Shown here one piece after another: positions 20,160 to 62,264 of a DNA stretch of 64,000 nucleotides. The stretch is from Trypanosoma brucei. Lineage: Eukaryota. The stretch's first letter is position 1, and each line of letters starts with the position of its first letter. The DNA lies in contig AL929603.2 of NCBI GenBank assembly GCA_000002445.1, positions 448,001 to 512,000 of the forward strand. The letters run 5' to 3'. The notes beneath the pieces are model-generated. The model made no database searches and was not told the origin of the DNA. It saw only the letters and a program-made list of their open reading frames with translations. Both the position numbers and the translations under genes were made by a program.

Positions 20160-20879
20160 TTGAAATTACACGGACTACCTCCTACGGCCAACTCGATGGG
20201 AATTTATTCCGACACTGATGATGACTCTCCCATCGGGATTGAGGTGGTAGGCGAGGCGAGTTCTGATTCGGAAGAACCAAACCCCCATTCAACCACAAAG
20301 CGAAAAGTTTCCGGGGCTGTAGACCATAATAATGGTTATAATCAAAAAAAAAACAAGCGGAGGCGGTTAAAAAATAAATGGGAGGAAAACCCTCAGCTGC
20401 ACGAAACGCCGGATGAGGAGCAAATTAGCAACGTTAAAAAGCGTGTTTATGTGTTGGACACATGTTCTATTGTTGAGCACATTGAGTGGTCAATTTTGGA
20501 GGAAGTTGCCAAGTATTACTTGATTATCATACCAAAGAAAGTGATGGACGAATTAGGAAAAATGGAAGGGGGAAGGGGAAGTACATGCAACAGGGTGTTG
20601 AACAAACTGGAGAATGAGCACACGAGTAACAAAATGAATGTTGGCTTCCGTTTGCAGCGCAAAAATGATAAGGACAAAAATGTTTTGTCTGCAGCTCGTG
20701 TGAATGACGATCACATTCTTTCGTGTGCATGTTCCTTCCGTAACGAACATGATGTCGTATTAGTTACGAGTGATAATATATTGAAACTGAAGGCATATGC
20801 AGAGGGCATACCGACAGTATCGACGCTCAAAGACGTCACCCGACTGACTAATGGTTTAAGAGGTGGGAAATTTGAATGA
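20160..20879 (+). CDS. PIN-domain protein of 239 aa, a predicted Mg-dependent RNase fold.
   Basis: The PIN motifs appear in order: 'VYVLDTCSIV', 'KVMDELGKM', 'NDDHILSCA', 'VVLVTSDNILKLKA'. The N-terminal part is acidic and S/D-rich. The start could instead be the second Met at 20196. Confidence 0.65.
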   Translation: MKLHGLPPTANSMGIYSDTDDDSPIGIEVVGEASSDSEEPNPHSTTKRKVSGAVDHNNGYNQKKNKRRRLKNKWEENPQLHETPDEEQISNVKKRVYVLDTCSIVEHIEWSILEEVAKYYLIIIPKKVMDELGKMEGGRGSTCNRVLNKLENEHTSNKMNVGFRLQRKNDKDKNVLSAARVNDDHILSCACSFRNEHDVVLVTSDNILKLKAYAEGIPTVSTLKDVTRLTNGLRGGKFE

Positions 20880-36189: not shown

Positions 36190-39100
36190 ATGAATGAATC
36201 CCACATGTGTCATCAAAGGCCTGTTTGCCTCAACGCCTTCACAAAACAACCCGCTTCGTCACTGGCGTTGGCGCCAACAGCCGCAGTTACGCATAAGGTG
36301 AACAGTATGAAAGTGCAACCAACGGCGGATGCACTAAAAAGCAAAATTACGCTCAATGAGGGACTGACATGTATTGATTTCCAACCGGGACGTCACCTCC
36401 TAGCTATTGGGTGCACGAAAGTTGTTCATATTTTGGAAGTGAAGCAACTGGCAGAGGGGAACCAGTCTTTCACTCCAACGCGTAGTGATAGCGGAAAGAG
36501 AGGAGGTGCGGAGAGTGAAGCTTTCCAGTCATCACATCTGCCTCATTCCTCCGGTCACATGGGACTCCGGCAGTGTGGTACGTTTTGTAATATTTCAAAG
36601 GTGGAAGCAGTTGCTTGGTACCCGGATACAGGTGAAGATGTGCTTGCCTTTGTGCAGCGAAATCGTAACATCACGATATTGTTCGACACTATCTCTGTCA
36701 AATCTAACAGACGCGTAACCAAACAGTGGATCCACAAGGCTTCAGATCGATGTCTTATCTCTTCCATGGAGGCGGGGAGTTCTCTGTCAAGTACAGCGGT
36801 GGTAAATGCTTTGAATGCCACCTGCACGCCCATCTTCGGTGGGTCAGCACCAGAGGTACCGCATCCTACTTTCCATGCGAAGCGTGACCGTGAGGGGCGT
36901 GGTATGGTTGAAGTGATTATCCCGACCGGTCACAACCACGTGGAGCGCATCGCCTGGGACCCACACAACGCATACACGTTGGCTCTGGCAGCTGATGCGA
37001 CTCATTTCGAGCTATGGCATATCCCAGTCGTTGATGATCATGTTCACATGCCGCGCCTCATCCTAAGGCCACCAGCTCATGACGAGCGTTCCACGACGCG
37101 GAGCGTCGCCTTTTCCCCTTCTAACCCTAATCTCATTGTCGTAGCGGTGCAGCTGACCAACGCGGGAAAGGTTATGATATATGATCGCCGTCATGTAGAG
37201 GTTCCACGCTGCGTGACGACGATGGGACCGTGTTTTGCCGCCTCATTCCACCCCGTTTACTGTGATTTACTTGCCGTATGCTGTCGAAAAACGAAAGCGA
37301 AGACGGATTCTCGAGTGCAGTTCTTTCGTGTGATGGATGAAATGCGCCCAGTGGGAGTGTTGAAACTACCCGCTCCCGCAAGTGTTGACAGTGGCGCTAC
37401 CACTTTCCATTCCACAGGAGCCAACTCCGCGTGGCCTGTGACGGAGCAGAATATCCTTCCACCCATCGACACTGTTGACCCTCTTAATAGACTTCGCTGG
37501 CGCCCTGCTGTGAAGGGATCTCAGGGAACAGCAGTGGATGTCACCGTCGACTCTGCAGAGGCAATAATTGACAAAATATCCTCGCAGTTGTGGTTTGCCA
37601 CGACATCGATTAATGGTCAAGAGGTCAGTGTATGGGATGCATCCAACGTCTTTTGTCCAATCTTTTCCATCAAAAGTATATCTAACAGGCGGAATGTGTC
37701 ACAACGTGAGCGCACCTTACGGGAGCCGACGGATTGTGTTTGGGTAAACGCGTTGACGCTGGTATGCGTGTTTAAAGATGGGGAAGTGGAGCTTATCTCA
37801 CTATTTGATGAGGCGACAGAAAGCAATGAGACGCTATTTCGTTGCGCGAGTGAGACGACTACCACTAGTGACCCAAGTAGCGACACTACCATCAACAAGA
37901 TGGTGGATCCGGGTACATTCAGCCTTGCGGCCGTACTTCCCACCGCTGCTATAGTGCCAGATTTTTTTGGTCAATGTTTGGTTGTACGCAACTCTTCTTC
38001 AGCGCTGCGCGAGTACTATGCCAATGCGATACGTGCAGACAAGGGTAAAATACTGGAACTAATGTTGTTAGAATACGGCGCGGAGTGGGGCAGCAGCATC
38101 AGCGGAGACGGAATCACTTCATCCAGTGCCGCTTCGTTTCCAATATCAGGCACCTCCTCAAGTACAGGACTGGGAGCGGTGTCACGTGGTCTTAGGGGTA
38201 CTACTCGTATAGCCCCCGTCGCACAAACACCAGCAGACCGAAGCCAGTCGTCTCAAATAAACGCAACATTTCGCCACAGCCATACGCGACCGTTATTACC
38301 GAACTCGGGGTCATCTGTTGATCGTTCGCGCAGTCCGTTCGTTCTCGGGGCAGAGACCCCGGGAGTAGCAACCGCCGGCGTCGCGTCGGCAGCGGGAAGG
38401 CGGCACGAGTCGCTATTCCCATTTCTGATCTCCCTTGCTTTGCAGGCACAAACAACGAGCACGCCGAGAGATAACCTCCCTACTACCAGTGCTCCAGCGG
38501 CCTCAAGTGGAGATGTGCTAGAATTAGCACCTGACCGAGAAAAGCAACAGGAAGAACCTCATCGAACAACCGCAAGTCATGTCATCACGGCTCCGCCGCG
38601 GCGAAGTAATTCGACATCCCACAACGGCTGCGCTGATATATGTTATGAAAAGAGCCCAGATGGGAACGCGCGGACAGTTGGGATGCGACCGAGTCACAAC
38701 GCATTTTTGAGGCAAGAACGTCAGCAGATGCCCGCTATGTCTCCCTCTACACCCAAAATACCCTGTGCGGACATACTTGAGTTAGTGCTCCCTGCAGTAC
38801 TGTGTCCGAACAGCGCCTCCATTATAAGCCCCCTTTCACTTATGGGATCAGGAAGCGACTACAGCCGGTGCATGTTACCAAACGCTGGTGTCGCTCCTGG
38901 CAGTTGCAAGAGTAGTGAAGTCTTGAACTCCCCACTCAGTGATTTGCCATATACGCGGGGGGTACCGTACTCCTTCAGAGAATACGGTGCCAGTGGTCGA
39001 AGCACCAGCCCCCGTTCGTCCGCTGTGGCGTCACCAACTGGCTTACCAAAGCATTCTTTAGCACAACCACTACTACTGGGAGTGAAGTCACATGTGAATC

Positions 39101-40521
39101 CAGTGATTGAACATCACATCATCTCCTCCGACATGCCCAATCTTACTTATGTCGAGCGCCTGTCAGAGCACGACGCGTTTGTACGCTATGCTAGGGAGTG
39201 GGATGTTGGGTATGATGTTGCCCGAAAGATGATAAGCGACCGCTATTCCGTCAGATGCTCAACGGATAATACAGAATACGAAGAGCGTAAAGAGGGCCAA
39301 TATTTAGCCAACAAACGCCACGTAGACAGACGCTTTGCGAGACTTATGGCACACAACGCAAAAGTTTGTTTTATTCACGAACGTACTATGCGTCTAAAAG
39401 TTGGCGCCTACTCAAGGGAGGGAATAGCGAATAGTAGTTGTGAAACAGAGGAAAGAGGACTGTGCAACGACCTCAACAGTTTTGCAGGGCAGTCAGCCGA
39501 TATTCGTGGGTCTTTATGGGCATCCGCCAAGGAAATATGGCGTAACCACAACGTGCCATACATCGCTTCACACGTGGCTTTACTTTTAGACTACGCATCA
39601 CTAACTGGTGACGTCCAGTTCTGTACAGTACTGTACCTTCTGTTCTGTTTATGGTGGGAGCAACGACACGGGTCCATGCTTAGCCACCCCTGTCCATTTC
39701 TTCCCAGTGCTAACGCTAATGCGAGAGAAGGCCACAACAGGAAATCAAGCCAGTCTGCAGTCACAACTTCTGAGGTTGGTGGATGCTCCCCACAACGTTG
39801 GCGGTTGCGAGCACTCCAATGGGTGGAGCAGTATGCATCACGCCTGTATGCAATGAAGTTATACGTCCCTATTAACGAGTTGTTGCTAGTTGTTCCCCAT
39901 GTATTAGGAGACTCCAACTCAGGTTTACCGCGGTCAGAAGAAATTGCGCAGAAGCTATTTACGTATTTGTATTGTGGAGTGTGTAGGAAAACCGAGATCG
40001 TGCCACATCACACGATGAGAGAGAAACTAGGATATCTACCGTCAAGTTTGTCGGAACAGTTATCGCTTGGAAGGAGTGGAGGGGAAGACGACAGGCAGGC
40101 AAAAACTGATCACAGTAGTGATGAATGCACAGAAACGTGTGATTCCAGCGGCGATTCGACACCACTGTCAAGCATGCGTTCTTCGTCAAGCTCTCTTTCT
40201 GCGCTTGATGGAAAAGACACGCTGGGAAGTGTTGTCGGCAGTGAAGTTATAGCTTCAGAAAGGATGAAACCAACGAGTGCTGCTTCATACGCCGGAAACG
40301 AGCCTTCAATTTGTGGGCCCGTCACATATCGTAATGCTGTTTGTAGGAGTTGTACCAGTAACTCCCTCATGACTTGTATGATATGTGAGGAAGAAGTGGA
40401 GGGGATGTATATGTGGCTGCGTTGCTGTGGCCACGGTGGGCATGTGCAGCACATCGAGGAGTGGCTTTCGATAAGCAATGAGTGCCCCCTATGCGGCGTG
40501 CCTATTATGATGAAAGAGTGA
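36190..40521 (+). CDS. WD40-repeat protein of 1443 aa with a C-terminal RING/zinc-ribbon (C-x2-C...CCGHGGH-x2-H...W...CPLC). It is candidate SEA/GATOR2-type (Mios/WDR24/WDR59-like). A HOPS/CORVET Vps-type is the alternative.
   Basis: WD-like segments lie at the N-terminus, for example 'LLAIGCTKVVHILEV', 'ERIAWDPHNAYTLALAA', 'VAFSPSNPNLIVVAVQ...KVMIYDRR', 'INGQEVSVWDASN'. The last 60 aa read 'CMICEEEVEGMYMWLRCCGHGGHVQHIEEWLSISNECPLCGVPIMMKE'. Confidence 0.8.
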   Translation: MNESHMCHQRPVCLNAFTKQPASSLALAPTAAVTHKVNSMKVQPTADALKSKITLNEGLTCIDFQPGRHLLAIGCTKVVHILEVKQLAEGNQSFTPTRSDSGKRGGAESEAFQSSHLPHSSGHMGLRQCGTFCNISKVEAVAWYPDTGEDVLAFVQRNRNITILFDTISVKSNRRVTKQWIHKASDRCLISSMEAGSSLSSTAVVNALNATCTPIFGGSAPEVPHPTFHAKRDREGRGMVEVIIPTGHNHVERIAWDPHNAYTLALAADATHFELWHIPVVDDHVHMPRLILRPPAHDERSTTRSVAFSPSNPNLIVVAVQLTNAGKVMIYDRRHVEVPRCVTTMGPCFAASFHPVYCDLLAVCCRKTKAKTDSRVQFFRVMDEMRPVGVLKLPAPASVDSGATTFHSTGANSAWPVTEQNILPPIDTVDPLNRLRWRPAVKGSQGTAVDVTVDSAEAIIDKISSQLWFATTSINGQEVSVWDASNVFCPIFSIKSISNRRNVSQRERTLREPTDCVWVNALTLVCVFKDGEVELISLFDEATESNETLFRCASETTTTSDPSSDTTINKMVDPGTFSLAAVLPTAAIVPDFFGQCLVVRNSSSALREYYANAIRADKGKILELMLLEYGAEWGSSISGDGITSSSAASFPISGTSSSTGLGAVSRGLRGTTRIAPVAQTPADRSQSSQINATFRHSHTRPLLPNSGSSVDRSRSPFVLGAETPGVATAGVASAAGRRHESLFPFLISLALQAQTTSTPRDNLPTTSAPAASSGDVLELAPDREKQQEEPHRTTASHVITAPPRRSNSTSHNGCADICYEKSPDGNARTVGMRPSHNAFLRQERQQMPAMSPSTPKIPCADILELVLPAVLCPNSASIISPLSLMGSGSDYSRCMLPNAGVAPGSCKSSEVLNSPLSDLPYTRGVPYSFREYGASGRSTSPRSSAVASPTGLPKHSLAQPLLLGVKSHVNPVIEHHIISSDMPNLTYVERLSEHDAFVRYAREWDVGYDVARKMISDRYSVRCSTDNTEYEERKEGQYLANKRHVDRRFARLMAHNAKVCFIHERTMRLKVGAYSREGIANSSCETEERGLCNDLNSFAGQSADIRGSLWASAKEIWRNHNVPYIASHVALLLDYASLTGDVQFCTVLYLLFCLWWEQRHGSMLSHPCPFLPSANANAREGHNRKSSQSAVTTSEVGGCSPQRWRLRALQWVEQYASRLYAMKLYVPINELLLVVPHVLGDSNSGLPRSEEIAQKLFTYLYCGVCRKTEIVPHHTMREKLGYLPSSLSEQLSLGRSGGEDDRQAKTDHSSDECTETCDSSGDSTPLSSMRSSSSSLSALDGKDTLGSVVGSEVIASERMKPTSAASYAGNEPSICGPVTYRNAVCRSCTSNSLMTCMICEEEVEGMYMWLRCCGHGGHVQHIEEWLSISNECPLCGVPIMMKE

Positions 40522-41018: not shown

Positions 41019-42245
41019 ATGCCGTCGCCCAAACTCCTGTATTCGGTGGGTTTACCTGAATTTTATGCTGATGGCTTTGCGTTAGCCGTACCACCCCCGC
41101 CACCGGCAGACATGCCTTCACCCTTCCTTGCACGTCGGCAGGAAGGGAGTAGTGAAGAACAAGGTAAAGAGGAAGAAAGCGTGGGATTTACTCCGAGAAA
41201 CTTCCTAGTGGCACCCCATGTGTCACAGGCCACTCCTACCCCAAGCACCACATTGACGTCCAGCGATCCATGCACAGTTTCCGCCCCTCATGTGCACGTC
41301 TCGGAAACCTTGTCAGATCACCTAGGGCCATGCACCTCATCCACGCAGAGTTTTCAGACTCCGAACAATGCGACAGCAGGCACCTCTAGCACAACGCCGA
41401 CCTACGAGCTGGCACAGCTGTTGTGTGATGCCGTGATGAAGTGTTACAGACGGGAGGATGAGCTTCGGCAACAACTGCGAAGGGTGGATGAGGAGAAAGA
41501 GGACGGTGGGTGGCGTGCATATAACAGTAAATTGAACAGCAAGGAAGTGGCACCTCGTTCAGGGGCATTTCCACGTATGGTTGATAGCATCCACTCGCTG
41601 AAGTGCAGGCGCCGCCAGCAGGTGCAGTTGAACGAAAATCACATGCTAAACGTGACGCGGGTGAGGGAGACACCCCAACTGGTGAGGGATGCAGTGCAAT
41701 ATGCTCAACAGCTTATCGAATGGCGCTCTAACAGCGACGACAACTCTAACATCAGCGTTGATCCAATCTCGTCTAACACGGAGTTCCCAAACACAGAAAA
41801 AAGACATCAGCACGGACGCGCGGAGCCGCCAACTCAGCCAAACCACCCATGTGGTGAGGGTCGTGATTCTAGTCATATGCTTTATGCAAAGTATCCACCT
41901 CCACTATTCCATACAACATCATTCGCCGACGGTGTTACACGGCTCCTGAGGTGGATTCGAACATGGCAGCGATCATCCTCGGCAGCTGAGGCCGCCGAAC
42001 GGGCCCCCAATGGGAGAAGAAACTTGAAGAGAAAGAGAAACACTACGACGGAAACGGAGTCCAAGAAAAGAGCAATCTCTTCAACGGGGTTTCCAGCTTC
42101 CAACGAGGTGGATCTGAAGGGGCGTAAGCAAGGGGCAAGAGGCGGAGTGGTAGGAGTAGGTAGCACGGCAAATGCGAGCGTTGAAAGCAGAAGCTCCAGC
42201 AGCAGTTCGTCCAGCAGCAGTAGCAGCTCGAGCAGTAGTAGTTCT

Positions 42246-42278
<33 letters not shown>

Positions 42279-44543
42279 TCGAGTAGTAGTAGCAGTAGTA
42301 GTTGCAGTGATGCTTCTCAAGAAGCGCAGCAGCAACAAAAAGAGCAGCGGACATCTCTCCAACGTTACTACGACACTTGGCTACATGTAGCCGACACATT
42401 GGCCAGTGGATGCGTCAATAGTACCCTTGAAAGTGGTTTAGCAATGGATCACATGGCCCACCCGGGACTCCCTCCAGAGTTGTGCCGCAAGGCGGATCGT
42501 GGACTCTTGAGTGACCAAATTATGTATGACGAGCACGGAAACAGAATGCGTAGTATGCGTCTCGCTCGCAAGATGGCGAAGGAGCGCGCAAAGCAAGAAA
42601 AGAGGCGTCGTGTGCTGGAGCGGCGTCGCGGTTATTTTGCACGTGACGAGGAGGAAAATAATATGACCGCGTTGAACGTGTTACTGTCTGACAACATTCG
42701 GGTAGACGACAAGGGCAATATGTGGAAGCATGACGTCGAAGACGACGTGACCAGTATTGCTATGATATATGGGCCGTGTGGAGTGGGGAAAACGGCCATT
42801 GTTTATCTAGCAGCGGCCGTGCTCGGTTATCGTGTGGTGGAAATGAATACTGCGGTGCGGCGATGCCCGAAAAATATTGACCGACTTTTATCGGAACTGA
42901 CACGCAGTCACAGACTCAGTGGTTTGGCGAGTTGCAAGCCGTTGATGTCAATTGAGGAGGAATTAAAAAAACTGAAGACGGAACAAGCGAACGAGGCCGA
43001 GTTAAGAAAATCAGCTGCCAAATCGACACCGGTGAAGAATAAAAAGGGAAATGCTATTTCTGCTAAAGCGGTGGCAGCTTTTTTCAAGAAAAATGTTCCG
43101 GAAAATGTGGTGGATGTCCACACAGAAGGGATTGTGGAAATTGCGGTATCGACTGAGAATGACAACCGTGCACGTGAAAAGGAAAAAGAGGCGGCAGCGA
43201 GTGCAGCCCAGCCGTCCACGACAACGCCAAACGCTACCTTGGATGAAACGACGCGCACCATATTATTGATTGAAGATGTAGACGTTATTCTCGGTGACGA
43301 GAGCATGCGGACTTTCTACACGGCGGTGAAGGATTTGGCTCAGCGCAGTAAAGTTCCGATCGTCCTCACAGCCTCTTCCCCCCCTTCCACCACCATAGGG
43401 GGTTCAACCGGGCGCCCTACAAAAGTGGTTGCGGCGGGTAACGACCCTGTCCAAATGATTCCCATGAGTGCAGTTCAAGCAGAGCAATACTTTGGGAGGC
43501 GGACACCATTCACGCGCATCGGCCCAATGTCACGTAGTGAACTGTTCGCACAGATGGTTGTTGTTGCTGCTGCGGAGCGCGGATTACTATCGCTGCGCGA
43601 GGACACGGTGCCTTGCCCGCCCAAGAAAAAGTCACGAAGGCGACGGAGGGGGAAAAGAAAGGCAAACTCTACCGAAGGAGAGACAAAGCCTAAGAAGGAG
43701 AAGCTGATCTCGTTCACAACGGTTGTTGTGAATGACGTGGCGATGTTTGAAAGCCTTGCTGATGCACTACGAGAGGAGGTTTACGGAAATGTCGAGGATA
43801 TCGAACAGTGCCACACATTGAATGACCAGACGGATGTTCGGAGGTGGCTTAATCGTCTGCAGTATCTGCTCTTGCGTGAGTTCTGGCCAATGAACTGCTC
43901 CACATTTACTGATGACATCACATCTCTCCCACTAACAATCATCGAGGGGCCACCAACGTCTAAGATACATCCAGATACAGACGACACTGAGGTTTCTAGG
44001 AGCGAATGGGATGCGCGGCTCGGCCGCATGTTACGCGAATCTCCCAACGCCGTCCGCTCTACAATTGCATCCTGCTGGGAATGGAACCATTTTCAATATA
44101 GTGAGGAGGCAGCCTCTGTAGCGATACATTCGACAACACCAGCGGTTACGCAGTTTTCCGCCCCGGGGCCAGGCGGTACCACAGGTGACGTTACAGATGA
44201 TGGGGGCGCGGATGTGCCCCCATGTGAAGCTCGTGGAAGCAACATTATTCTCAGCTCGCAATGTCCCTGTGGCGAATGCGACGCCTCCTTCATGCCCTCT
44301 GTTGATATGCGCGATCTCTTCGGTTTTCGAACACTGCTAAATGGTCTTCCTTCACCTGAGCACGCACGGAACTGCATCACGACTAACGATCGCATGAATG
44401 CCTTCGGCTCATGGTGGCGCCGCACAAAGAAAAAGGAAGCAGCGAAGCTTTTCGTGGCAGGTTGCAGTGAGAAATCGTACATGGACGTTATCGGGTTCAG
44501 CTGTCTGCTTCAGCAGTCTACTGTTGTTTTACATATAGATTAG
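41019..44543 (+). CDS. AAA+ ATPase of 1174 aa, RFC1-like / Elg1(ATAD5)-like clamp-loader family.
   Basis: Walker A is 'IYGPCGVGKTAIVYLAAAVLGYRVVEMN'; compare the Elg1/ATAD5 motif 'GPxGxGKTAxVYAxAxELGFxVxExN'. A Walker B-like motif is 'ILLIEDVDVIL'. Long low-complexity N- and C-terminal regions. Confidence 0.75.
42187..42305 (+). repeat. In-frame (AGC/AGT)n microsatellite encoding a run of about 40 serines inside the AAA+ gene.
   Basis: Seen directly: 'SSSSSSSSSSSS...' in the translation and agcagcagcagc in the DNA. Confidence 0.95.
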
Positions 44544-45785: not shown

Positions 45786-48700
45786 GTGAAAGTAACCTTT
45801 ATGTTACCATCCTCTCAGGACCAACTACCGAGTGAGAAAACGAGTAGAACAACGGCGGATGCGGTGCGACGAGTGGCCGCTTATCCCATAGACTTCAACA
45901 CGGCGCAAAGCAGCACCATAACACATCAACAACAACAGCAGCTTAAAAGCTGTGCCGGTATTGATTTGAACCTCCATCCGTTATGCCAACAGCATTTTTA
46001 CACAGGAGAAATGATGCGCGGAGGGGAAGGGAGTAGAGGCGCTCTGATCCCCCACGGGAAGGGGACTTTACTGTGGGTGTTGTATGCTACAGCCCCAGAT
46101 ATTTCCTTCACGGATCCCTCAGGGTCCGTGGGATTACCATACGAATTGCTAGTCCGTGAGTTCGGGGAGGTGAACACACTGCGTGATGCTGTGCTGCTTG
46201 CCCTTTGCGTGTACTCGGGTTCATTCAACTCTGGCAAGAAATGGGGCGGTGGTAGCCTCACCATCTACCCCCAGTGCGTGAAGTTAGACTGCTGTTGGGA
46301 GGATGGCAAACCCATGTTGAAAAGAAACTACTGTGTGCTGTATTACCCGGCCTCGTCACAGGCAGCGTCGTGCGGCGATAGTGCTGGGAGTAACTCCGGT
46401 AGGAGCGGTGGCAGTTCCGATTCTACTGCCAGTTTGGGAACACTACTGAGAAGCGGGCTGACACGCGCTGGGAAAGCGGCAACTGCATCGACGGCTAATC
46501 ATCAGTATATTGGTATGCTTACCATGACGACTGTTGCCGGGAAGGCACAATGCTCCCTCACAGCGGGGCTGGCTTGGTCGCAACACGTGCAGTTTATGCC
46601 GGATGGTATAGGAGAGATGTGTTACCAGGGAGGCGTACGCTACTGTGGTGAGTGGAAGTCTGGCAGACAGCATGGTTTTGGCGTGGAATTTGACCCAAAC
46701 GGCTTTGGGAGTATGGTATACATTGGTAGATTTGAAAACAACCGTCGGTGTGGTACGGGTACCTTGTACAATTGCAAAGCAGGAGTGGTAGTTAGTGGTA
46801 CGTGGAGTGAAGGAAAGTTGTGTAGTGCAGTAGATGTAGGACTACCAAGTTGGCCCTTCGTGCTTCGCAACGCCCAGTGGACGAACGTTGATGAATGGTC
46901 GTTCGAAAAGGCTTCCCTAGTGCACTCGGATACTTCACTGAATGGTACATGGGAACCTTTGTTCTCAGACTTTGATAGCGCACTCACGGACCCCGCAGAT
47001 CTTGAAAAGGAAGAAATGTTGTTGCAGAAAGGTACCAACGGGGGTAGAGACTCAGATGCTGATGGTGGCGCCGACGAATGGGAACGGTCTAGTGTCATCA
47101 TGCTGCTTCGATCTTTCCTGCAGCGAACGGAACTCAAGGCGACTCTCATGCTCTTCCAGCGCTGCTTTTATTTCTTGTACAAACCGTGTGCGGGGGGAGC
47201 GCGGTGGCTTGATGCAGAGATGTTGACACCCCTGAGGAAGTCGAAACAGCAGCAGAATGATGGCGAGCCGGCAACAGTGGGGTCTTCTGGAGCCTCCCTT
47301 CCAGTGTTCGCAAAGCTCCGTGATCTTGGTCGGACTGACTGTGGAATTTCATTTTTCTCAGACCGTGGGCGCCACTGGTGCGCCCCGTCGTGGTGTAACG
47401 AGATGGGTTTAGGTAGTGGAGGGGGGAATAGTACAGGTGGGGATGGTTACGTTGGTTATGGTTGCTTTCACACGGCAAGCACTGCAGAGGGTCTCGCGGC
47501 ACGTCTGCCTCCTGAGGCACTCTTCAAATGGGCTGCTCGTGACCTTGCTTTCGTTGTGTCATCGGTTAGATTGCGTTTGCTGTCGTGTATTGCTTCACAT
47601 CCGGCAGCGGGTAGCCTGGTGGGGAGCAGGCACGTCCTCGCAGTTTGTTGGGATACAGTGTACTCTTTAGTGGCACCGGTCATGCATGATCTTGCGAGTG
47701 CCGTGGAAATAAAAGCGTACTTGGAAACTTCTATGGCATTAAAGCGATGCATAAACCTCTGTCCTTCAGGTTTTGTTTGCTCCACTCACTTGTCAGAAGC
47801 TAGCTCTGCAGCGGTGAGCAATGATGAAATCCAAGGAGTGATAAGGCGATGTGGTTTCGTCTTCTCCTCACCCTCCCGTCACTGGCGCCGTCGTGCAACG
47901 GAAACAAATAACGGTAAACTTCTGCAGTTCGGACCGTATGTTAGTAACGAAATAGATTGTACTAGTGAGGAAGCTGTAACTTATGCGACACCATCTACTC
48001 TGCTCGCCGCTTTCGCCACTCTCCGTTGCTATGCCGATCGTCTTTTCCCACGGAATGAACTTCTGCGAGAACGATGGATGAGTGGTAGCATTGCCAACGC
48101 CTTCACGAAGGCCGCGGAAGTGCATCCGCAACTGGCGATGAGTCCTCCTGCCGTACTTCGCGTGCTGGCCACCCTCGCTACAGAGGTCAACCCAGCTTAT
48201 CCCTTCGCCATGGAAGACGTACTCGGCATAGATGAGCAGCGGGGCGTGACGCTCAGTTCAACTCGCATCGATAGTGGCGACAGAGATGCGAGTATAACGG
48301 ATGTGATGTCATTACTTCTAGCTGCGCACGAAAGCGCTGTACGTTTGCGGCATGCTTACCCTAATATTCGTCATGTGGTGAGTTATGTGGTTTCCTCTGG
48401 ATCAGGAACGCACAATGCACACAGATTCGATGCCGTTTACCCTCTTGATGAATTAGCTGTCCGTACCCGTTTTGTGCTTCTTGGGGTTGCCGCTGAAGTT
48501 GTCCAGCAGCAGCACATGTGGTTCGGGCGTTTGGTTAGTAGGGATAACGTCAGGAGTGGTAACGGGGAATGCAACAATAGTTACCTATACTGTTCTGATG
48601 AGGATGTGGCTCATCCCCAAGTGATGAGTAATGATGCCTCCGGTGATGAGCTGGCCCAAATGAAGGAGCGCGCTGAGCGTGTTTTACGGCTGCCTGTGTG

Positions 48701-53552: not shown

Positions 53553-56500
53553 ATGCCGCGTTACACCGCCATGCGACGTCTCGGTCCAGTGGGCCATAGC
53601 GGTGGAATAAGTTCAAACGGTGTCACCACTGTTGGTGCCGTCACCGCGAGTAATGTCGGTAACGGCGTTGTCAACATCGGCGGAGATGGATCTCAGGGCG
53701 TTGCAATGGGCCCCGGTGCAACGGATGTGGCTTCGGCTCGCCCGCTTCTTATTGTACCAAACACAACCTCCGCTGCTGGAGGCTCCGCAGACGTTAGTGA
53801 CGAGGAGGTTGATCAGTTATTAAGGGAGCTTGAACGCTCTGTCGATAGTCCACAGGCAGCTGCGGTTATGCGTGACGCTGTGTGGGCTATTGAGCGACGT
53901 GCATTTTCTAGTTGTGACCCCCATAGTCGTGATTATTTCCTCGAGAGTCGTGTTCGGATTATCCTGATGAGCCTGTCGACGACAAGTGACGTAAAGCAGC
54001 TTCTGCTGGCCGTGGACTTCATTGAGGCCCTACTCGCTGTACCGTACACCAACCTGCAACACCGATTCACAAGGCTATGTAGGAGTCTAATGAACATACT
54101 GCGCTGTGGTATTGAGGAACCGGCAAGGGAAGCGCAGCGTGTTTTAAAGCGCATGCTGGTGACTGATTCGCAGTTCGGTGCTTATCACACCCCGTTGAGA
54201 TCATTCATTACAAAGGAACTCCGCGACAACTGCAAGGTGGCGCTCATGCGGTTATATGGTAGGGCACAGCAAGCCAACGTGTCCTTCACGCCTGATTTTC
54301 TCTCTACCATGCTAGCAGCGGAGGCAACGGCAGAGATCAGTCCACGGTTCATCACGGGGACGCTTCGGCAGCAGGTTCTGGAACTGGCAAGTATGCTAGC
54401 AGGTTTCTCTGATCTGTTGCTCCGTCGTGCCGCCTATCGGTGTATGGTGGTATTGTTCAAAAACACAAGCGCAATGCGACGCAAGGAGGTAGTGCTTGAG
54501 AACCGCCGAATAATAAACGAGGCGATCCGTTCGCTTAATTTGAGCCACAATAGTGAGTCGAGCATCATCTCCACACTTGAGACGCTTCGCGCCCTCCTTA
54601 GCAGCAGAGGGGTGCACTGCATGGACAAGCAAGTGAATACGCTTCCTCAATTATGTGTACTTGTCACTGAGCAACACAGAATTTCGAAGACAACAGCAGT
54701 GCGCAACGCAGTTTGTGACCTCGTGCCTGTTATTGCTGAAACCGACATCAGCTCTGCTGCTCGGCGTACAACATATTGCGCCATTATCATGGAGCCCGTA
54801 AAAAACGTCCGCGACGATTCTAACAAAGACCTGGAGCTGCGAAATCTAGCGATATTCATACAAAATGTAGGTTACGAGGTGTTGGACTCAACTAACAGGG
54901 TAAACTTAGACTCCATTATCCAGCGCTACATTACGCGACGTGGGACAGAGGAGGAGTGTTGGCACATTCTTGCGGCCATCTGCAGCTCACGGGCGAGACC
55001 GGAGACGCAGCGTACTCACATGTGTAGCAAAACAAGTTATATAGCCATGTCCTCCTCCTCCGCAATGCAGAAGGGCTGCGAAACGATCCAGGGGCACCAA
55101 AGTGGGGGCGAGATTAGCTTATCCGCGCAAGAACTTCGTTCGGCCAGCGCTGAGGCCCATTCAGTTTGCCAGTTGGTGGCCGGAGAATCCCAAAACAGTT
55201 GTAATAGTCACGAGCTCATGCAACCTGTTGAGGCTCTTGTTCGGCGGTGTCTTCCCCACATGGTCCACGCCGTTCTTTCTGATGAATTTGTGCGTTACAT
55301 CACCATCATACAAGATCACCTTCCGTCGTTGAGCTCGGACCTGCAGACGTATCTCGACCAACTAGTAAATCGTACACTGAGGAACGATAAGCGTAAATAT
55401 TGTGGCGGTGAAGTGGAGGACGGCGCTCTCGTCGCTCAGGTATTTGCTGGGGACCGCCTATCGACGGAACTGGGGAACTCTCAGCCACAGGAAGACATCA
55501 TACAGTCATCCACATTAGCCTATGTCACCGCGATGGGGCGTTTAGCGCAATACTTACTACCTACCACCCTACCTGAAGGAGGTGCCATAAACTGGCAGCA
55601 GAGTCAAGGAGCAACAAGTACGACTGCCACTGATGGCAATGGTCAAGGTTATAGCTTAGGATCAGTGGAAACCTTTTGCAAAAGTGTGGTGGCTGGGCAA
55701 CCACAATTGGTATCGCCTGAAAGTACACTTAGTAGTGCCGCAGGAGCCACAACAGCCGAGGTTTGCAGTGGGGCAGCACCCGACTCTGTGGGTGCCTCAG
55801 AGCTCAAAATAGCGCTGGAGGTCTTTTCAAAGCGACAGATAACATCGAGCGATCAGCTAAGGGAAGTGAGTGACATTATCATTCAATACCAGCGACATCC
55901 GGACAAGCGGGTACGGCAGCAATGTTGTACAACCGTTATCGAGGCACTCAAGTGCTGGGCACGGTACTCACAAAGCGACCGAACATCAGCTTATTCAAGC
56001 CTGGTGCCGGATCTACTAGAAGTGTACTTGAAAAATGTCGCCATGGAGTTGGATCCGAAGGTGCGGCTTGTGGAAGTGACACTGCTAGCCGACGCTGTGG
56101 AGTTGCGAATGTTTCTTAGGGAAAAACGCATTATCGATACATTGATAAGTTTTCTGCACGATATATCGCATGTGCGTGAAAAGACCATGGAGCTGCTGGT
56201 GACGCTCGCGCAAGACAACCACACCGGTCCTTCGGTGGAGACAGTGCAGTATAGTCTACTCATTGTGGTGGAGTCTTCCGTGGCGGCGTTAGAGTACTCG
56301 AGCGATCCCCGCATTCTCATTCGACACATGTCAGACCTGCAAACGGTGGCTAAATTCAGTCTTAGGCCGCTAATGGGGCATCTGGATCGTACGTTTGTCG
56401 CCTGTCGCCGGCGCCTTGTGGAAGAGGTAGTACCTGACACCATTGCGTTGTCTACGCTCAAAACGTTGCGAACTATACTGGAGGCCATAAAGCGAGAGGA

Positions 56501-59500
56501 AGCTGTGCTTCTGAAATACAAGGACGTTGCATTGGAGTTGTATGCGCCGGTGGCAGTGGCTCTCCGCGCAAGTACCGCCTCGCCTCTCAGTCACGCAGCA
56601 ATCGGTGTTTTAGTGTGTATGCATGAAATCGGGGCATCACCGTTGAACTGGGATGCTCGTCAGTTGCATGAATTGTTGCAGTCCGTCACCGCAGTATACA
56701 TCGAGGCGGCAAACAGCACGGAGGAGGAACTGGGGCGGGCACTCACACTCTTTGGGCAAATTGGTGCGGTAGACCCGGCCACAAAACCTGATACAGCCGC
56801 GATGAAAAAGAAAGATGATGAGGCGGCGATTCAAGATGAAGCGGACCTTGAGCTTACCTATGACTATACAAAGATTGTTTACCGCAACCTAAGTCGCATG
56901 CTAGACCTGAGCTTGTCGGAAAGCGTGTGTGTGCAGTCGATGTGCACATTATTGCATCTTGTGAGGCTCACTACCGACCGAAAGGAACTGATTGGTGGAA
57001 TGCACGCCATAAAGGCGATTCTTCAAATTGCCAGACGCGCCAATGATGCTCCTTTGCTTCGGATTGAAGCGCTCCACATACTAGCAGCCATAACTTCGCT
57101 GAGGCACGAGAAGGTGTGCAAAACGCTTTTGCCGGAGCTGGTTACGCTGTTCGAGCAGCTGTGGTATCCCCAAGACCATGCACTCTTTCGCGCAGTTCTC
57201 AACCTCGTTAGCGCGCTGAAACCAGGAAACCTGACAGGAAAAGAGCAATCGGAGGTTTGGCCGTGGTTGTACCCGCGCCTTGTGGACGTTGCCCTCCAGG
57301 ACCATACGGAAACCCGCGAGTTCTGCCTTCGTGTGGTGGGAATCATCCAGCACGCCAAGTATATCCCACCTCACTGTATTCCTATCGTGTTTCCTATGCT
57401 CACGCAGTTTGTTCAGCAAATGGATCAGTTGGCGGAGCTGCGCTCTCTTTCGCTCTGTGCGGCAATCCGAATCGTATGCAACCTTCAGGCAGTGCAGCAC
57501 CTACCCTCGCTGATGCACACTATCTGCACCCTTACGCGTCACTGTGACCTTACTGAGAACCTCGGGCCCCGCCTCTCCACACCGACGCTACATAGGTCGT
57601 TGAGGCTCCTTTCGAACACACATCCGAACGGTGAAGCGGATGTCAACGCACTGTGTGAGCGGTTGTGTGCCACAGGGAGTGAGGGAAGTGCGGATGCAGG
57701 TGGTTGTTTCACGAATGAAGGAGGCGAGACCTTGCCGACGTCAACACAGCCAAACTCGTCTTTCCATTGTGGTAACGGTGATTACGCGTCTGCACCATAT
57801 CTTGGGCAGTACACTCAAAAATGCCAGCAGCAACAGCAAGGGGGGACATATTTAGACCCCAACGACGACGAAGCGTACGATACGCTGCCGCAGGGTCAGC
57901 AGGACATAACGGCATTTATGAAGCATGTAGAATTTGGGCTCCGAGCAAAGGATAACAAGTGGCGCGAATGGTTCGCAGAGTTTCAGAAGAACATGATAGT
58001 TGCCTCTCCGCACCCCGTCTTCCGTATTATGGTAGACCTCTTTGATAAGCACGAACCATTGAGGCGAAAGCTGTTCCATCCATCCTTTAAGTGTTTCTAC
58101 GAGTCGCTGAATGCCGAGCATATGAAGAAGGTGAAAGATGTTCTCAACCTTGCCCTCAGGTCAAGTGATACCGAGGTTGTGTCCAAGTGCATTGGGCTTG
58201 CGGACTACCTCGACCATAACCCACCGAACATAAGTGAGTCCGTGCTACAACAACTGCGTCATCTGGAGGGCAATGAGCCTATGGATGTGGGTAAGTTCAC
58301 TAAACATAGCAATTTGCACGTCGGCAACGTGATTGCTGGAAGTAGAAGTCCAACACCCGCCTGTCGTCACGAACCTGGGGGGTATTACGCCTCCCACCAC
58401 GGCCAGCTTTACAGAAATATCAGTGATAACTATAATTTTGAGTCTGTGTTGCACTCACTCAATTCACCCAAAACAGAAGGGCCCGTTTTCAACGAAGGCG
58501 TACGTCCGCCTTCTCATAAGGTTCAGGATGTGGGTAACGGAGAGCATGAAGTCACTGACAACGGGGGGACCGACAGTGGATGTGGCGTTGAGCGGAATGG
58601 TAAGGAAGGTAGAAGTGAGAGTGAAAGTGGTGACGTCAATGGAAGCGCTCGCCGCCAGACCATGTTACCTGTGGCCAAGTCAATTGAGGGTGATACCAAC
58701 GAGGGTCTAAGTTTTCTCGCTGGGCCAGTCGCGAGGCGCATAACGGTATCCGCACATCACACCACAAACGTTAATGCATCCGATGGCACTTGCCCCAACA
58801 CCGGCGATGCAGAGGTTCACATTCGTGCCACAGCCATACCCAGCACAGTCAACCCACTGTTTACAAACGATAGCCTCGTAGAGGCTGCCCTTCGGACGCG
58901 GATGCCTGACAAGGCTATGAGTTATCTTGAGAACAAGTTACTCCCAGTTATGCAGAAGTATCGCTACGCCCACAGCGTACCTAAGGAGGCTGTGCAGGCA
59001 GTCGTCCTCCCACTCGCCTCTCTCTACAGTCGGCTCGAAATGCAGGACTCAGTGGTCGGGCTTTTCCACGCGATGCGTTACAAAAGCGATAATGAAGACG
59101 GGTTTGCCTATGAGTTATTGCAGTGGTGGGATGTGGCACAAGGCGTGTATGCAACCAAGGTACATGATTGCTGTGGAAGTTCGGCTCGTGATATTGATGG
59201 TTACGTGAGGATGCTTTGTCTGTGTGGAGAGTGGGAGCGCGCTCTGCAGGTCGTGAAGGACACCTACAAATCCCTCGACCAACCATCGTCCACCATTGCG
59301 CAGTCGGGTGCGATGGCAGCGTGGATCCTTGGTAAATGGGATGACGTGAAAATGTTGATAGAGCGGCTTCCAAACAAAGAGAAGGGAAATATTACGCTTC
59401 GACACTTCTTTCAAAACGCCACGCTTTTCCACCAAGAGTTCGGTTGCCGGGCACAATGGGATTGTGGGGTTCAGGACGGGCAGAGGCGCTTGGAGACTTC

Positions 59501-62264
59501 GCCCCAGGTAGAAGCCCTCCGCGCGTCTATCATGCGGGCGAAGATGGAGGTAGATGAGAGCCTTAAAACGTTGTTGCCACTCAGTTACGCGCACGCATAC
59601 GAAAATCTCACCATGTTGCAGCACTTCACCGAAATGGAGGAGCACATTGCCTACATGGAGTCGCGAACGGAGGAGTTTCGGGGCCAACTTCGGGAGCGTT
59701 GGAACCGTCGCTTCGCTGCACTGAAGCCGGATTCGCTTATGCCCAACCTACGCTCCCTTATGCTCCACTCGCTTGTGCTAAATGCGAGTGAAATGTCCGT
59801 GATGGTTGTCAACTTCTGTGAGCGGACTGGGACGAATTACCCTCAACTGTCAAAATGGGCTATGGAGTGGCTTAAGCAAGGCAAGTTTCCTCGTGCCAAT
59901 CATTTAAGTCAGTCGTGTCACGTACTCCCTGCTACTCCGGTCAGTTTAGAGCCGTGTGTGGCCATAACATACATTGGCCAAGTGTGGAGTGGCGGTCAGC
60001 GGCAAAAGGCAGTGCAACTGATGGAGAATTTCCTGGAGGAAACGCATTCTACACTGGAAGAGCAGCAGCCAGCTGCCTATGGTGTCGCGCAACTTCGTTT
60101 AGGTATGTGGAAGCAGGAGATGTTTGCAGATTCTTTTTGGAAGGTTGAACACCGCCAGGAAGTTTTACGGCACTTCCATGAGGCGGTACGCGCCGTGCCC
60201 GGAAGCTGTGAGGCGTGGCATAGTTGGGGGTTAATGAACTACCGAGTGCAGCAACGCGATTGCTCACTATCTCGTTATGAGCAGCGCCTCTTCGTCGAAG
60301 CCGCGCATCAGGGGTTTGTTGCGGCTATCTGCCGCAGTGCAAGTCCCTCTACTGCTCTTCCTGGCGTGATGCGTCTGCTTCAGTTGTGGGTTTTCCATAA
60401 TGGAATGTCATTACTGAAGGAATCGGTGGCAGACAGCGTCGCCCGAATCCCCACTGATTATTGGGTACAGGCAATTCCGCAGCTGATCGGTCACTTGCGC
60501 AGCGCAAGCCACGATGTACGTGACGTTGTGAGTATGATTCTTCAACGACTGTGTGTTGCACATTCCCAAGCTGTTGTTTTTCCGCTGTTAGTTGTGCTTA
60601 TGTCCGCTGATGGCGGTGGAGGGGAGACGCACTCTCGTCGGAAGGAGTTGGCGCGATCCATCATTAACAATCTTCCGAAGCGCATCCGCGCTGAGGCGGA
60701 GTTAGTAGCCACCCTCTTAATTAATGCATCGGCGACTCCCATTGAACGGATAGGGGAAAGTCTCAGTGCGGTGGCGACGGCATGGAACCCGAACGCAGAG
60801 TACGAAGAAGACAAGGAAGAGGTACGACGAAAACTAAGATATGTGCTTGATGTGTTCAATACTAACCGGCGTCAGCTGCTCTACAACGTGGGTGATATTG
60901 GCCAGTATGTGAGGATTGTCATGGAAGAGGACGCGTGCGGCCGCAGGGAGAAGGCAAGTGGCATTCTCACCCAACTAGTGGAAGAAATCACGAAGCACAT
61001 TTCGGAGAAACTGGGAAAAGAGCCTCAGAAGGCGATGGAACCGCTACTGAACCTCCGCAATCTTTCAATAGCAGTGTTTGGAGAGTATGATATTCAGTAC
61101 ACCAACTTTCCTACTATCGCGTCGTTTAGTTCAAAGCTTGATGTTATTCCCTCTAAGAAGCGTCCACGCCGCATCCGCCTCAGCGGCTCTAACGGTTGCA
61201 TGTACACATATTGCCTGAAGGGAAATGAAGATATACGTATGGATGAACGGGTCATGCAACTGTTTGGTATGGTGAATGTTCTATTAAGTGATGCCAAAAC
61301 CGCGAAGAGTGCATTCATACACCGCTTCCCAGTAATCCCCATCAGTGATAACGTTGGCCTGCTCGGTTGGGTAGAGCACGCGAACACCATCAACAATACC
61401 ATCTGTACTCACCGCAACACCATTTCAAAGGTACGAACGCATCATGAGTCCAACACCCTTAGGGCCTATGTTGAAACCATCGGGAGTTGGGAGAAACTCA
61501 GCATGATACGTCGCACAGAAATACTGGACTACGTCATGTCGCAGAAGGATTGTGAAGCAGTGGATGTTGCGCGTGCCATGTGGCATCGGTCAAATACAGC
61601 GGAGCAATGGTTGGAGCGCCGCACGGCCTTCACGCAGTCGTTGGCCACCATGTCGATGGTTGGTTACGTGCTTGGGCTTGGGGATCGTCATCTGGGCAAC
61701 ATTCTCCTTTCGATGTCCACTGGAAAAATCGTACACATCGACTTTGGTGACAGCTTTGATGTCGGTCGGTTGCGCCATGTACTTCCAGAAACCGTTCCAT
61801 TCCGGCTCACGCGCATGCTAACGAATGCAATGGAAGTGTTTGGTGTGGACGGTGTTTTCCGCGCCTCATGCAACCGCACACAGTCAACGCTGCACAAGAA
61901 CGCAGACAGTATCATGGCGCTTCTCACCGCTTTCGTACACGACCCCATTGTTCAGCACAAGGGGAAAATGCGGAACATGATGGAGAAGAGCCGCACCCCG
62001 CAGAACATTGTAGAGCGCATACGTAACAAACTTCGTGGGACGGAAATGGCGGTGAGGAATGCTGATACGGTGATATTTAACACGGTACTGGAGAGTTCAC
62101 GAAGGCCGGACCTTCTCTACATGTCACATGCCTTCAATGATGTTGCGAAGCGGACGGTGGTGAATGGACGGACAACAGAGGAGCAGGTGTCGATGTTAAT
62201 TGATGAGGCGACGCGATTGGAGAATTACGCCGCGCTCTACTTTGGATGGGGACCGCTGTGGTGA
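53553..62264 (+). CDS. TOR: Target-of-rapamycin (TOR) family PIKK kinase of 2903 aa, with HEAT repeats, a FAT region, a PI3K-like catalytic domain and FATC. A TOR4-type paralog is likely.
   Basis: Catalytic motifs are '[24 protein letters not shown]' (mTOR [24 protein letters not shown]), '[28 protein letters not shown]' (mTOR [28 protein letters not shown]) and the FATC end '[10 protein letters not shown]' (mTOR CYIGWCPFW). The FAT region contains '[12 protein letters not shown]' (mTOR AWHAWAVMNFEAV). Confidence 0.95.
   Translation: [2903 protein letters not shown]

What the first reader, a model, noticed from the sequence alone, without database searches (positions are those of the whole stretch)
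36190..40521. WD40 protein with a GATOR2/SEA-type C-terminal 'CGHGGH' RING two genes upstream of TOR
The final about 50 aa read 'CMIC...RCCGHGGHVQHIEEWL...CPLCGVPI'. This is the arrangement I associate with the C4HC2-type zinc-ribbon/RING found at the C-termini of Mios, WDR24 and WDR59, and of the yeast SEA subunits Sea4, Sea2 and Sea3. Those proteins are the nutrient-sensing regulators of TORC1, and they combine an N-terminal β-propeller with this C-terminal zinc module. The N-terminus here is WD-like, and the protein is enlarged by low-complexity inserts. SEA/GATOR components are poorly defined in trypanosomatids. The proximity to a TOR paralog is notable, although synteny in polycistronic genomes is weak functional evidence.
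Basis: partly seen in the sequence, partly recalled or inferred. Interest (0 to 1): 0.55.

Follow-up and report, generated by a model that had tools for sequence, protein, structure and literature searches.

The report
Trypanosome WDR24/Sea2 GATOR2 scaffold gene
This Trypanosoma brucei gene, still labelled 'hypothetical' in the databases, encodes the parasite's version of WDR24/Sea2, a scaffold subunit of the GATOR2/SEACAT nutrient-sensing complex; kinetoplastid homologues are already listed in published surveys, and its position 13 kb from the TOR4 kinase gene has no evident meaning.

Summary
The ORF (36190-40521, +, 1443 aa) and its C-terminal 'CGHGGH' RING are real. The window is T. brucei TREU927 chromosome 1, and the protein is Q4GZ31 / XP_001218890, annotated 'hypothetical protein, conserved'.

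Every part of the protein points to the WDR24/Sea2 family of GATOR2/SEACAT:
- The C-terminal domain (CTD) profile hits human WDR24 best (E=5e-12), ahead of WDR59 (2e-6) and yeast Sea2/Rtc1 (1e-3). There are no MIOS or HOPS/CORVET hits.
- With the CTD removed, profile-profile alignment to a WDR24-like family gives 99.7% (propeller) and 94-95% (alpha-solenoid), collinear, aligning signature motifs (RLRWRP, VWD..F.P, GDVQ, YCGxCxK).
- No RWD domain (the WDR59/Sea3 hallmark) was found.

Lineage features are two low-complexity inserts, one of 119 aa splitting the zinc finger, and a short tail lacking 'GCGHxCEY'.

The TOR claim needs correcting. The kinase is TbTOR4, which is not the TORC1 kinase. 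It lies 13 kb and at least three ORFs downstream, within gene order conserved across trypanosomatids.

Kinetoplastid GATOR2 homologues were already catalogued in 2021 and 2023. This is ordinary and of low interest.

The parts
36190..40521 (+). Complete ORF, 1443 aa plus stop: T. brucei Q4GZ31 / XP_001218890, 'hypothetical protein, conserved'
   Evidence: exact sequence match to T. b. brucei TREU927, contig 1,064,672 bp
36337..37809 (+). N-terminal WD40-type beta-propeller (aa ~50-540) with loop insertions
37912..38064 (+). Conserved post-propeller segment (aa ~575-625; invariant L579 P584 T585 A587 F593 G594 S604 L606 Y610 I614). Candidate partner-binding (blade-donating) element; this role is inferred only.
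   Evidence: Conservation. Low pLDDT when folded alone. The role is an analogy to WDR24/Sea2 and was not tested; HHalign confidence in this stretch is low.
38065..39075 (+). Low-complexity, poorly conserved linker (aa ~626-962); no RWD domain
   Evidence: Gap-rich, unconserved columns. No Pfam hit in any of 9 orthologues.
39076..39963 (+). Alpha-solenoid (aa ~963-1258) including the GDVQ motif (G1140-Q1143) and RALQWVEQY (aa 1207-1215)
   Evidence: AF2 helices with pLDDT 70-94. HHalign to the WDR24-like family solenoid gives 94-95%, E 8e-9 to 1.6e-7, with motif-level alignment.
39967..39990 (+). LYCGVCRK (aa 1260-1267): first Cys pair (C1262, C1265) of the CTD zinc finger
   Evidence: Invariant in orthologues. 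Aligns to the 'NQxSTTIxxCxxCxK' consensus of the WDR24-like family.
39991..40335 (+). Ser/Asp-rich low-complexity insertion (aa 1268-1382) that splits the zinc finger; 119 aa lie between the two Cys pairs (C1265 to C1385)
   Evidence: Gap between Cys pairs is 104-126 aa in Trypanosoma, 263 aa in Phytomonas/Leptomonas, 21-38 aa in intermediate sequences and 10 aa in animal WDR24-like proteins. pLDDT below 50.
40336..40518 (+). CTD: second zinc-finger Cys pair (C1385, C1388) plus RING (C1396, C1399, C1413, H1415, H1418, H1421, C1432, C1435), with the 'CGHGGH' signature
53553..62264 (+). Context only, not part of the feature: TOR-like PIKK (2903 aa), Q4GZ26 / XP_001218895, inferred to be TbTOR4 (Tb927.1.1930)
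   Evidence: FAT, PI3_PI4_kinase and FATC domains. Best PDB hit is mTOR at 1e-102. Located on chromosome 1. TbTOR4 is the only T. brucei PIKK with a chromosome-1 gene ID (PMC13340017).

Best explanation
The gene encodes the T. brucei orthologue of WDR24 (yeast Sea2/Rtc1), one of the three paralogous propeller-solenoid-RING scaffold subunits of the GATOR2/SEACAT complex. Shown here: the architecture is N-terminal WD40 propeller, then alpha-solenoid, then C-terminal zinc finger plus RING, and each module is homologous to the WDR24 family. Inferred from the human GATOR2 and yeast SEAC structures: the CTD binds three zinc ions (C1262/C1265/C1385/C1388, plus an eight-ligand cross-brace RING). It serves mainly as a heterotypic junction with the CTD of the Mios/Sea4-like subunit, which holds the cage-like complex together. 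A segment after the propeller probably completes the open propeller of the euglenozoan Sec13b paralogue. The assembled complex would sit on the lysosome/endosome and modulate Rag-GTPase signalling to TORC1 (TbTOR1), possibly with RING-dependent ubiquitin-ligase activity. The long low-complexity inserts are lineage-specific loops tolerated between the folded modules.
Confidence: 0.78

Rival explanations
1. It is the WDR59/Sea3 orthologue (the GATOR2 subunit that contacts GATOR1), not WDR24/Sea2.
For: The CTD also matches WDR59 significantly (E 2.3e-6; HHalign 99.3%). The intermediate sequence P0030 scores WDR59 and WDR24 CTDs about equally (25.2 against 24.9 bits). Published trees did not resolve kinetoplastid Sea2 from Sea3.
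Confidence: 0.12
2. It is an unrelated WD40-RING-H2 E3 ubiquitin ligase (COP1/RFWD3-like or lineage-specific) whose RING merely resembles the GATOR2 type.
For: Generic RING-H2 E3s (RLIM, RNF165, EL5, RNF38) also appear in the hit lists, and zf-RING_2 is the only Pfam model above its cut-off. The propeller resembles many WD40 proteins, including COP1.
Against: Generic E3s score well below WDR24. The solenoid between propeller and RING aligns to the WDR24-family solenoid, including the GDVQ and pre-zinc-finger motifs. The zinc finger plus RING ligand spacing matches the WDR24 type exactly. The RING sits at the extreme C-terminus after a solenoid, which is the protocoatomer arrangement.
Confidence: 0.05
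3. It is a MIOS/Sea4 orthologue, or a HOPS/CORVET (Vps8/11/18/41-type) propeller-solenoid-RING tether subunit.
For: The overall domain order (propeller, solenoid, C-terminal RING) is the same, and these families are evolutionarily related to Sea2-4 (PMC8534245).
Confidence: 0.03

Closest known systems
Human WDR24 (GATOR2 subunit; PDB 7UHY chain C)
   Different: The T. brucei protein is 1443 aa against 790 aa. It has a ~340-aa disordered linker and a 119-aa insertion inside the zinc finger. The final pair is CPxC rather than CPxGC, and the 'GCGHxCEY' tail is missing, so a possible extra ligand set is absent. The propeller has long loop inserts. Outside the CTD, identity is only ~13-22%.
Yeast Sea2/Rtc1 (SEACAT; PDB 8ADL chain A)
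   Same: Same family and architecture. The RING is matched at E 1.1e-3 to 4e-3. Like the trypanosome protein it is enlarged (1341 aa) by disordered regions.
   Different: Weaker similarity than to animal WDR24. Only the RING is matched by sequence.
Leishmania donovani LdCL_200015700, published as the WDR24 homologue (PMC7901767)
   Same: Leishmania orthologues of this gene lie on chromosome 20. They show the same 43% identity to the human WDR24 CTD, and the same downstream neighbours.
   Different: Leishmania proteins are ~2440-2620 aa, with larger inserts. Identity of my orthologue P0182 with LdCL_200015700 is inferred from chromosome and BLAST statistics, not from an accession match.
Human WDR59 / yeast Sea3
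   Same: Paralogous CTD with the CGHGGH signature (E 2.3e-6).
   Different: WDR59/Sea3 carry an RWD domain after the propeller and a 'GCGCxC' tail. Neither is present here, and scores are lower throughout.
MIOS/Sea4 and the HOPS/CORVET RING subunits (Vps8/11/18/41)
   Same: Protocoatomer-type propeller-solenoid-RING layout.
   Different: No detectable sequence or top-ranked structural match.

Membership tests
WDR24/Sea2 (GATOR2/SEACAT) | N-terminal WD40 beta-propeller | tested here: met
WDR24/Sea2 (GATOR2/SEACAT) | Alpha-solenoid between propeller and CTD, homologous to the family's solenoid | tested here: met
   Confident helices. HHalign 94-95% with GDVQ and RALQW..Y motifs aligned. Foldseek of the model was uninformative.
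WDR24/Sea2 (GATOR2/SEACAT) | C-terminal zinc finger plus RING with the CxHGGH signature at the extreme C-terminus | tested here: met
   PDB best hit is the WDR24 CTD, E 5e-12. Ligands are invariant and spacing conserved.
WDR24/Sea2 (GATOR2/SEACAT) | Pfam zf-RING_16 (PF17120) above its curated gathering score | tested here: not met
   21.5 bits against a 27.4 cut-off, E 1.9e-4; 7 of 9 orthologues hit below the cut-off. The cut-off is conservative: P0035, which matches human WDR24 at 3.5e-58, also scores only 25.5.
WDR24/Sea2 (GATOR2/SEACAT) | Closer to WDR24/Sea2 than to the paralogues WDR59/Sea3 and MIOS/Sea4 (orthology) | tested here: inconclusive
   The forward direction favours WDR24 in every test. 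The reverse direction rests only on the published Leishmania BLAST. There was no proper WDR59/MIOS profile control outside the CTD, and the published tree is unresolved.
WDR24/Sea2 (GATOR2/SEACAT) | Physical membership of a complex with Sec13/Seh1 and the Mios/Sea4 and WDR59/Sea3 subunits | not testable with these tools
   Only indirect evidence: Sea proteins co-purify with Sec13b in Paradiplonema (PMC10264103).
WDR24/Sea2 (GATOR2/SEACAT) | Regulates TORC1 through GATOR1 and Rag GTPases | not testable with these tools
   No functional data. In Leishmania, RagA and RagC are present but NPRL2/3 were not found by BLAST (PMC7901767).
WDR59/Sea3 | RWD domain following the propeller | tested here: not met
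   No RWD Pfam hit at E<=0.1 in any of 9 orthologues. The linker is unconserved low complexity.
HOPS/CORVET RING subunits (Vps8/11/18/41) | Sequence or profile similarity of the RING-H2 and solenoid to Vps-type subunits | tested here: not met
   No Vps chain in the PDB searches at E<=10.

The most novel reading that the evidence does not exclude
Kinetoplastid GATOR2 may be rewired. The WDR24-like subunit keeps an intact zinc finger plus RING but carries large disordered inserts. It would assemble on a dedicated Sec13b paralogue instead of Seh1. It may also act without a canonical NPRL2/NPRL3-containing GATOR1, which was not found in Leishmania by BLAST. It could then signal by a different route, for example RING-dependent ubiquitination or input to the trypanosome-specific TOR4 quiescence pathway, which would make the conserved linkage to TOR4 more than coincidence.
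Probability: 0.08. Interest if true: 0.6.

Novelty: already known. Interest (0 to 1): 0.22.

Why it matters
It gives a specific functional name (WDR24/Sea2-like GATOR2 subunit) to a T. brucei gene and to its Leishmania and T. cruzi orthologues, which public databases still call 'hypothetical' or merely 'WD40 repeat-containing'. It also maps the modules (propeller, solenoid, split zinc finger, RING) for anyone who wants to tag or truncate the protein. Amino-acid sensing upstream of TORC1 is uncharacterised in African trypanosomes, so the gene is a reasonable entry point. However, the existence of kinetoplastid GATOR2 homologues is already published, and nothing here is unexpected for the family.

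Tried and rejected
(1) A word-indexed homology search with the C-terminal profile was swamped by low-complexity candidates and added only one remote hit. The exhaustive HMMER search was needed.

(2) The AF2 model of the C-terminal half gave a confident solenoid but a CTD with pLDDT below 50. Its Foldseek search returned nothing, so there is no structural confirmation of the RING fold.

(3) The trypanosomatid-only propeller profile found nothing significant in the PDB. It became informative only after adding intermediate sequences.

(4) The 'WDR59-like' comparison set (P0077, P0133, P0150, P0154) has no propeller or RWD Pfam hits and is probably made of fragments. The near-zero HHalign probabilities against it are therefore not valid evidence against WDR59.

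(5) PDB chains 9dx0, 9dx1 and 9dx2 appear to be engineered fusions whose depositor names ('Nucleoporin SEH1', 'SEC13') do not describe the matched segment. I read them by matched region, not by name.

(6) Table S7 of PMC10264103, which holds the T. brucei Sea2/3/4 IDs, is not held. Searches for Tb927.1.1870, 1880, 1890 and Q4GZ31 found nothing relevant.

(7) I considered functional linkage with TOR and rejected it. The kinase is TbTOR4, not TORC1's TbTOR1. It is 13 kb away in a polycistronic unit. The part of the gene order I could check (target, AAA-like gene, MORN gene) is the conserved trypanosomatid synteny. I did not reach TOR4 in the other species.

(8) Whether P0025-P0028 are orthologues or paralogues could not be settled, because they come from unnamed assemblies.
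Full report
OBSERVATION. The window holds one uninterrupted ORF at 36190-40521 on the + strand, 1443 aa. The sequence is identical to T. brucei brucei TREU927 protein Q4GZ31 / XP_001218890, annotated 'hypothetical protein, conserved', on the 1,064,672-bp chromosome-1 record. The T. equiperdum copy is called 'WD40 repeat-containing protein'.

Orthologues exist throughout the trypanosomatids (T. vivax, T. congolense, T. theileri, T. cruzi, T. rangeli, Phytomonas, Leishmania, Leptomonas, Porcisia). All are annotated hypothetical, WD40 or RING-type.

SIGNIFICANCE OF THE MOTIF.
- Pfam gives zf-RING_2 at E=3.7e-6, just above its cut-off. It gives zf-RING_16 at 1.9e-4, below its cut-off.
- Against all PDB chain sequences, the single protein's best hits are the C-terminal domain (CTD) of human WDR24 (E=1.8e-6) and yeast Rtc1/Sea2 (4e-3).
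- A profile of nine orthologues raises WDR24 to 5e-12, WDR59 to 2.3e-6 and Rtc1 to 1.1e-3. Generic RING-H2 ligases score lower, and no MIOS, Sea4 or Vps chain appears.
- Chains named 'Nucleoporin SEH1' or 'SEC13' in entries 9dx0-2 appear to be engineered fusions that carry these CTDs.
- All ligands are invariant in the nine orthologues: C1262, C1265, C1385, C1388, C1396, C1399, C1413, H1415, H1418, H1421, C1432, C1435.
- The spacing C-x2-C, x7, C-x2-C, x13, C-x-H-x2-H-x2-H, x10, C-P-x-C is conserved from trypanosomes to animal WDR24-like proteins.

ANATOMY. The orthologue alignment shows three conserved blocks separated by unconserved low-complexity stretches.

(ii) Residues ~575-625 are strongly conserved but fold with low confidence in isolation.

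(iii) Residues ~963-1258 are confidently helical. They contain the invariant GDVQ (1140-1143) and RALQWVEQY motifs.

(iv) The CTD follows. Residues 626-962 and 1268-1382 are low-complexity inserts.

WHICH FAMILY, INDEPENDENT OF THE RING. An exhaustive HMMER search of 1.84 billion representative proteins with the solenoid+CTD profile found 658 hits. These comprise deeper euglenozoan-type relatives (P0020-P0028), intermediates (P0030, P0032, P0045, P0033), and many long proteins with a C-terminal CxHGGH module.

With the CTD cut off, almost all of those long proteins form one cluster. It is anchored by P0035, which matches human WDR24 at 3.5e-58 over four stretches, compared with 1.9e-15 for WDR59.

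The RING-free trypanosomatid propeller profile recognises the intermediates (4e-27 to 2e-8), and then WDR24-like proteins.

Profile-profile alignment with the CTD excluded gives the following results, in collinear order.
- Propeller: 99.7%, E 4e-25, 393 columns.
- Solenoid: 95%, E 8e-9.

The local alignments pair family-specific motifs rather than generic WD repeats.
- 'PIdsvdslNRLrWRP' pairs with 'tIqTiasVxrvxWRP'.
- 'LWFATta..EVsVWDAxngFxPi' pairs with 'iASca..sihvWDlxrpyiP'.
- 'FHPxfsDLLAV' pairs with 'WHPxxxnxLA'.
- 'LLDYASLTGDVQFC' pairs with 'LxxxxexGDVQtc'.
- 'RALQWVEQYASRLY' pairs with 'xxxxWfxaYidLL'.
- 'AQK-LFTYLYCGVCRK' pairs with 'NqxSTtixxxCxxCxk'.

That last pairing shows that C1262/C1265 is the first Cys pair of the WDR24-type zinc finger. 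In Trypanosoma a 104-126-aa insertion (119 aa in T. brucei) separates it from its partner pair. The gap is 10 aa in animals, 21-38 aa in the intermediates and 263 aa in Phytomonas and Leptomonas.

A broader euglenozoan propeller profile without the CTD, searched against the PDB, ranks WDR24-containing chains first (8e-9 and 2e-6 for fusion chains). Native WDR24 scores only E=0.003 (19.6 bits), within the generic WD40 range. WDR59, MIOS, Sea3 and Sea4 are absent from the 60 hits shown.

PARALOGUE ASSIGNMENT. WDR24 beats WDR59 in every CTD comparison.
- Profile search: 47.6 against 28.9 bits.
- BLAST: 53 against 43 bits.
- HHalign score: 149 against 107.

No RWD domain, the hallmark of WDR59/Sea3 (PMC8534245), is detectable in any orthologue.

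Independent published BLAST work in L. donovani lists three different genes: WDR24 = LdCL_200015700 (chr 20; 69 aa, 43% identity), WDR59 = LdCL_300009300 and MIOS = LdCL_250018400 (PMC7901767). The Leishmania orthologues of my protein are on chromosome 20 (LPMP_205250; L. major record FR796416.1). L. donovani P0182 aligns to the human WDR24 CTD at 43% identity over 65 aa. The family studied here is therefore very probably the published Leishmania 'WDR24'.

Caveats:
- My WDR59-like control set lacked propellers.
- The intermediate P0030 does not discriminate between WDR24 and WDR59 CTDs.
- Faktorova et al. report that kinetoplastid Sea2 and Sea3 fell outside the canonical clades, and were assigned by reverse BLAST to a diplonemid (PMC10264103).

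I put family (Sea2/3/4-type GATOR2 subunit) membership at about 0.95 and the WDR24/Sea2 assignment at about 0.78.

MECHANISM (inferred). This is by analogy with the human GATOR2 and yeast SEAC structures, drawn from my knowledge of those papers and from PMC8534245 and PMC9646525. I expect the protein to be a structural subunit.

The zinc finger plus RING would bind three zinc ions and form a heterotypic junction with the Mios/Sea4-like CTD. In yeast, Sea2 lacking its RING loses all SEACAT partners.

The conserved post-propeller segment is a candidate for donating a blade to an open Sec13-type propeller. In Euglenozoa that partner is probably the dedicated Sec13b paralogue (TbSec13.2), because Sea proteins co-purify with Sec13b in Paradiplonema and because Leishmania has no separate Seh1 hit.

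The complex would then modulate Rag-dependent TORC1 signalling. E3 activity of the RING is possible but untested.

The short CPxC tail, lacking 'GCGHxCEY', and the large inserts are lineage variations. Several non-euglenozoan WDR24-like proteins share the CPxC ending.

THE TOR NEIGHBOUR. The 2903-aa ORF at 53553-62264 has FAT, PI3/4-kinase and FATC domains, and its best structural relative is mTOR at 1e-102. It is XP_001218895 on chromosome 1.

The only T. brucei PIKK with a chromosome-1 ID is TbTOR4, Tb927.1.1930 (PMC13340017). TbTOR1, on chromosome 10, is the TORC1 kinase.

The gene lies 13 kb downstream with three large ORFs in between (AAA-like, MORN, 441 aa), not two genes away. The order target, AAA-like, MORN is conserved in T. 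cruzi and L. major, as expected from general trypanosomatid synteny. I see no functional signal in the proximity.

NOVELTY AND VERDICT. It can be sharpened to WDR24/Sea2.

Kinetoplastid GATOR2 homologues are already in the literature (2021, 2023). The gene is an ordinary, if much expanded, orthologue whose database annotation lags behind. Interest is low (0.22).

The main value is an improved annotation, the module map, and the finding that an insertion splits the zinc finger.

Noticed in passing
window 1-14853: ORF 88-14853 (+, 4921 aa) consists almost entirely of 115 tandem copies, 99% identical, of a 123-bp (41-aa) acidic unit spanning 1-14200. It has striking composition (GC 0.585, AT skew +0.49). 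The array starts at the window edge, so it may be longer.
   Followed up: partly
window 20160-20879 and 22272-23417: Two neighbouring + strand ORFs (239 and 381 aa) each carry a PIN_4 nuclease-type domain (E 2e-20 and 1.5e-10).
   Followed up: no
window 41019-44543 and 45786-49577: The immediate downstream genes are a 1174-aa protein with only a short AAA/Walker-A-region match (aa 582-613) and a 1263-aa protein with a single MORN repeat hit. The order target, this pair is conserved in T. cruzi (L001) and L. major chr 20 (L002).
   Followed up: partly
window 53553-62264: The TbTOR4-like PIKK shows FAT, kinase, FATC and a weak HEAT_ATR hit, but no FRB-domain Pfam hit at E<=0.01. Its similarity to mTOR covers only the C-terminal ~650 residues, so the N-terminal ~2200 aa are unassigned.
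   Followed up: no
whole window: All ORFs of 200 aa or more, except one inside the repeat array, are on the + strand, and AT-rich (GC 0.34-0.36) stretches separate them. This is consistent with a single polycistronic transcription unit.
   Followed up: no
P0182 (L. donovani) aa 2421-2437; P0021 (L. shawi): Leishmania orthologues have an extra proximal Cys pair ('VGCDWCDA' / 'VGCGKCDG') exactly 10 residues before the CRRC pair, the same spacing as in animal WDR24. They have this in addition to the distant conserved 'YCGTCSK' pair. Trypanosoma keeps only a single Cys at that position. Which pair ligates zinc in Leishmania is unclear.
   Followed up: partly
P0044 (1476 aa, ENA/Logan assemblies): An unnamed environmental protein aligns to the trypanosomatid solenoid+CTD profile over 312 positions but has a 'CGHGAH' variant, no match to the propeller profile and no Pfam hit. 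It may be a different SEA-type paralogue from an unsampled protist.
   Followed up: partly
PDB entries 9dx0, 9dx1, 9dx2: Chains labelled 'Nucleoporin SEH1', 'Protein SEC13 homolog' or 'WDR24' match through WDR24, WDR59 or MIOS segments at positions inconsistent with those names. They look like engineered fusion constructs, and taking the names at face value would mislead.
   Followed up: partly
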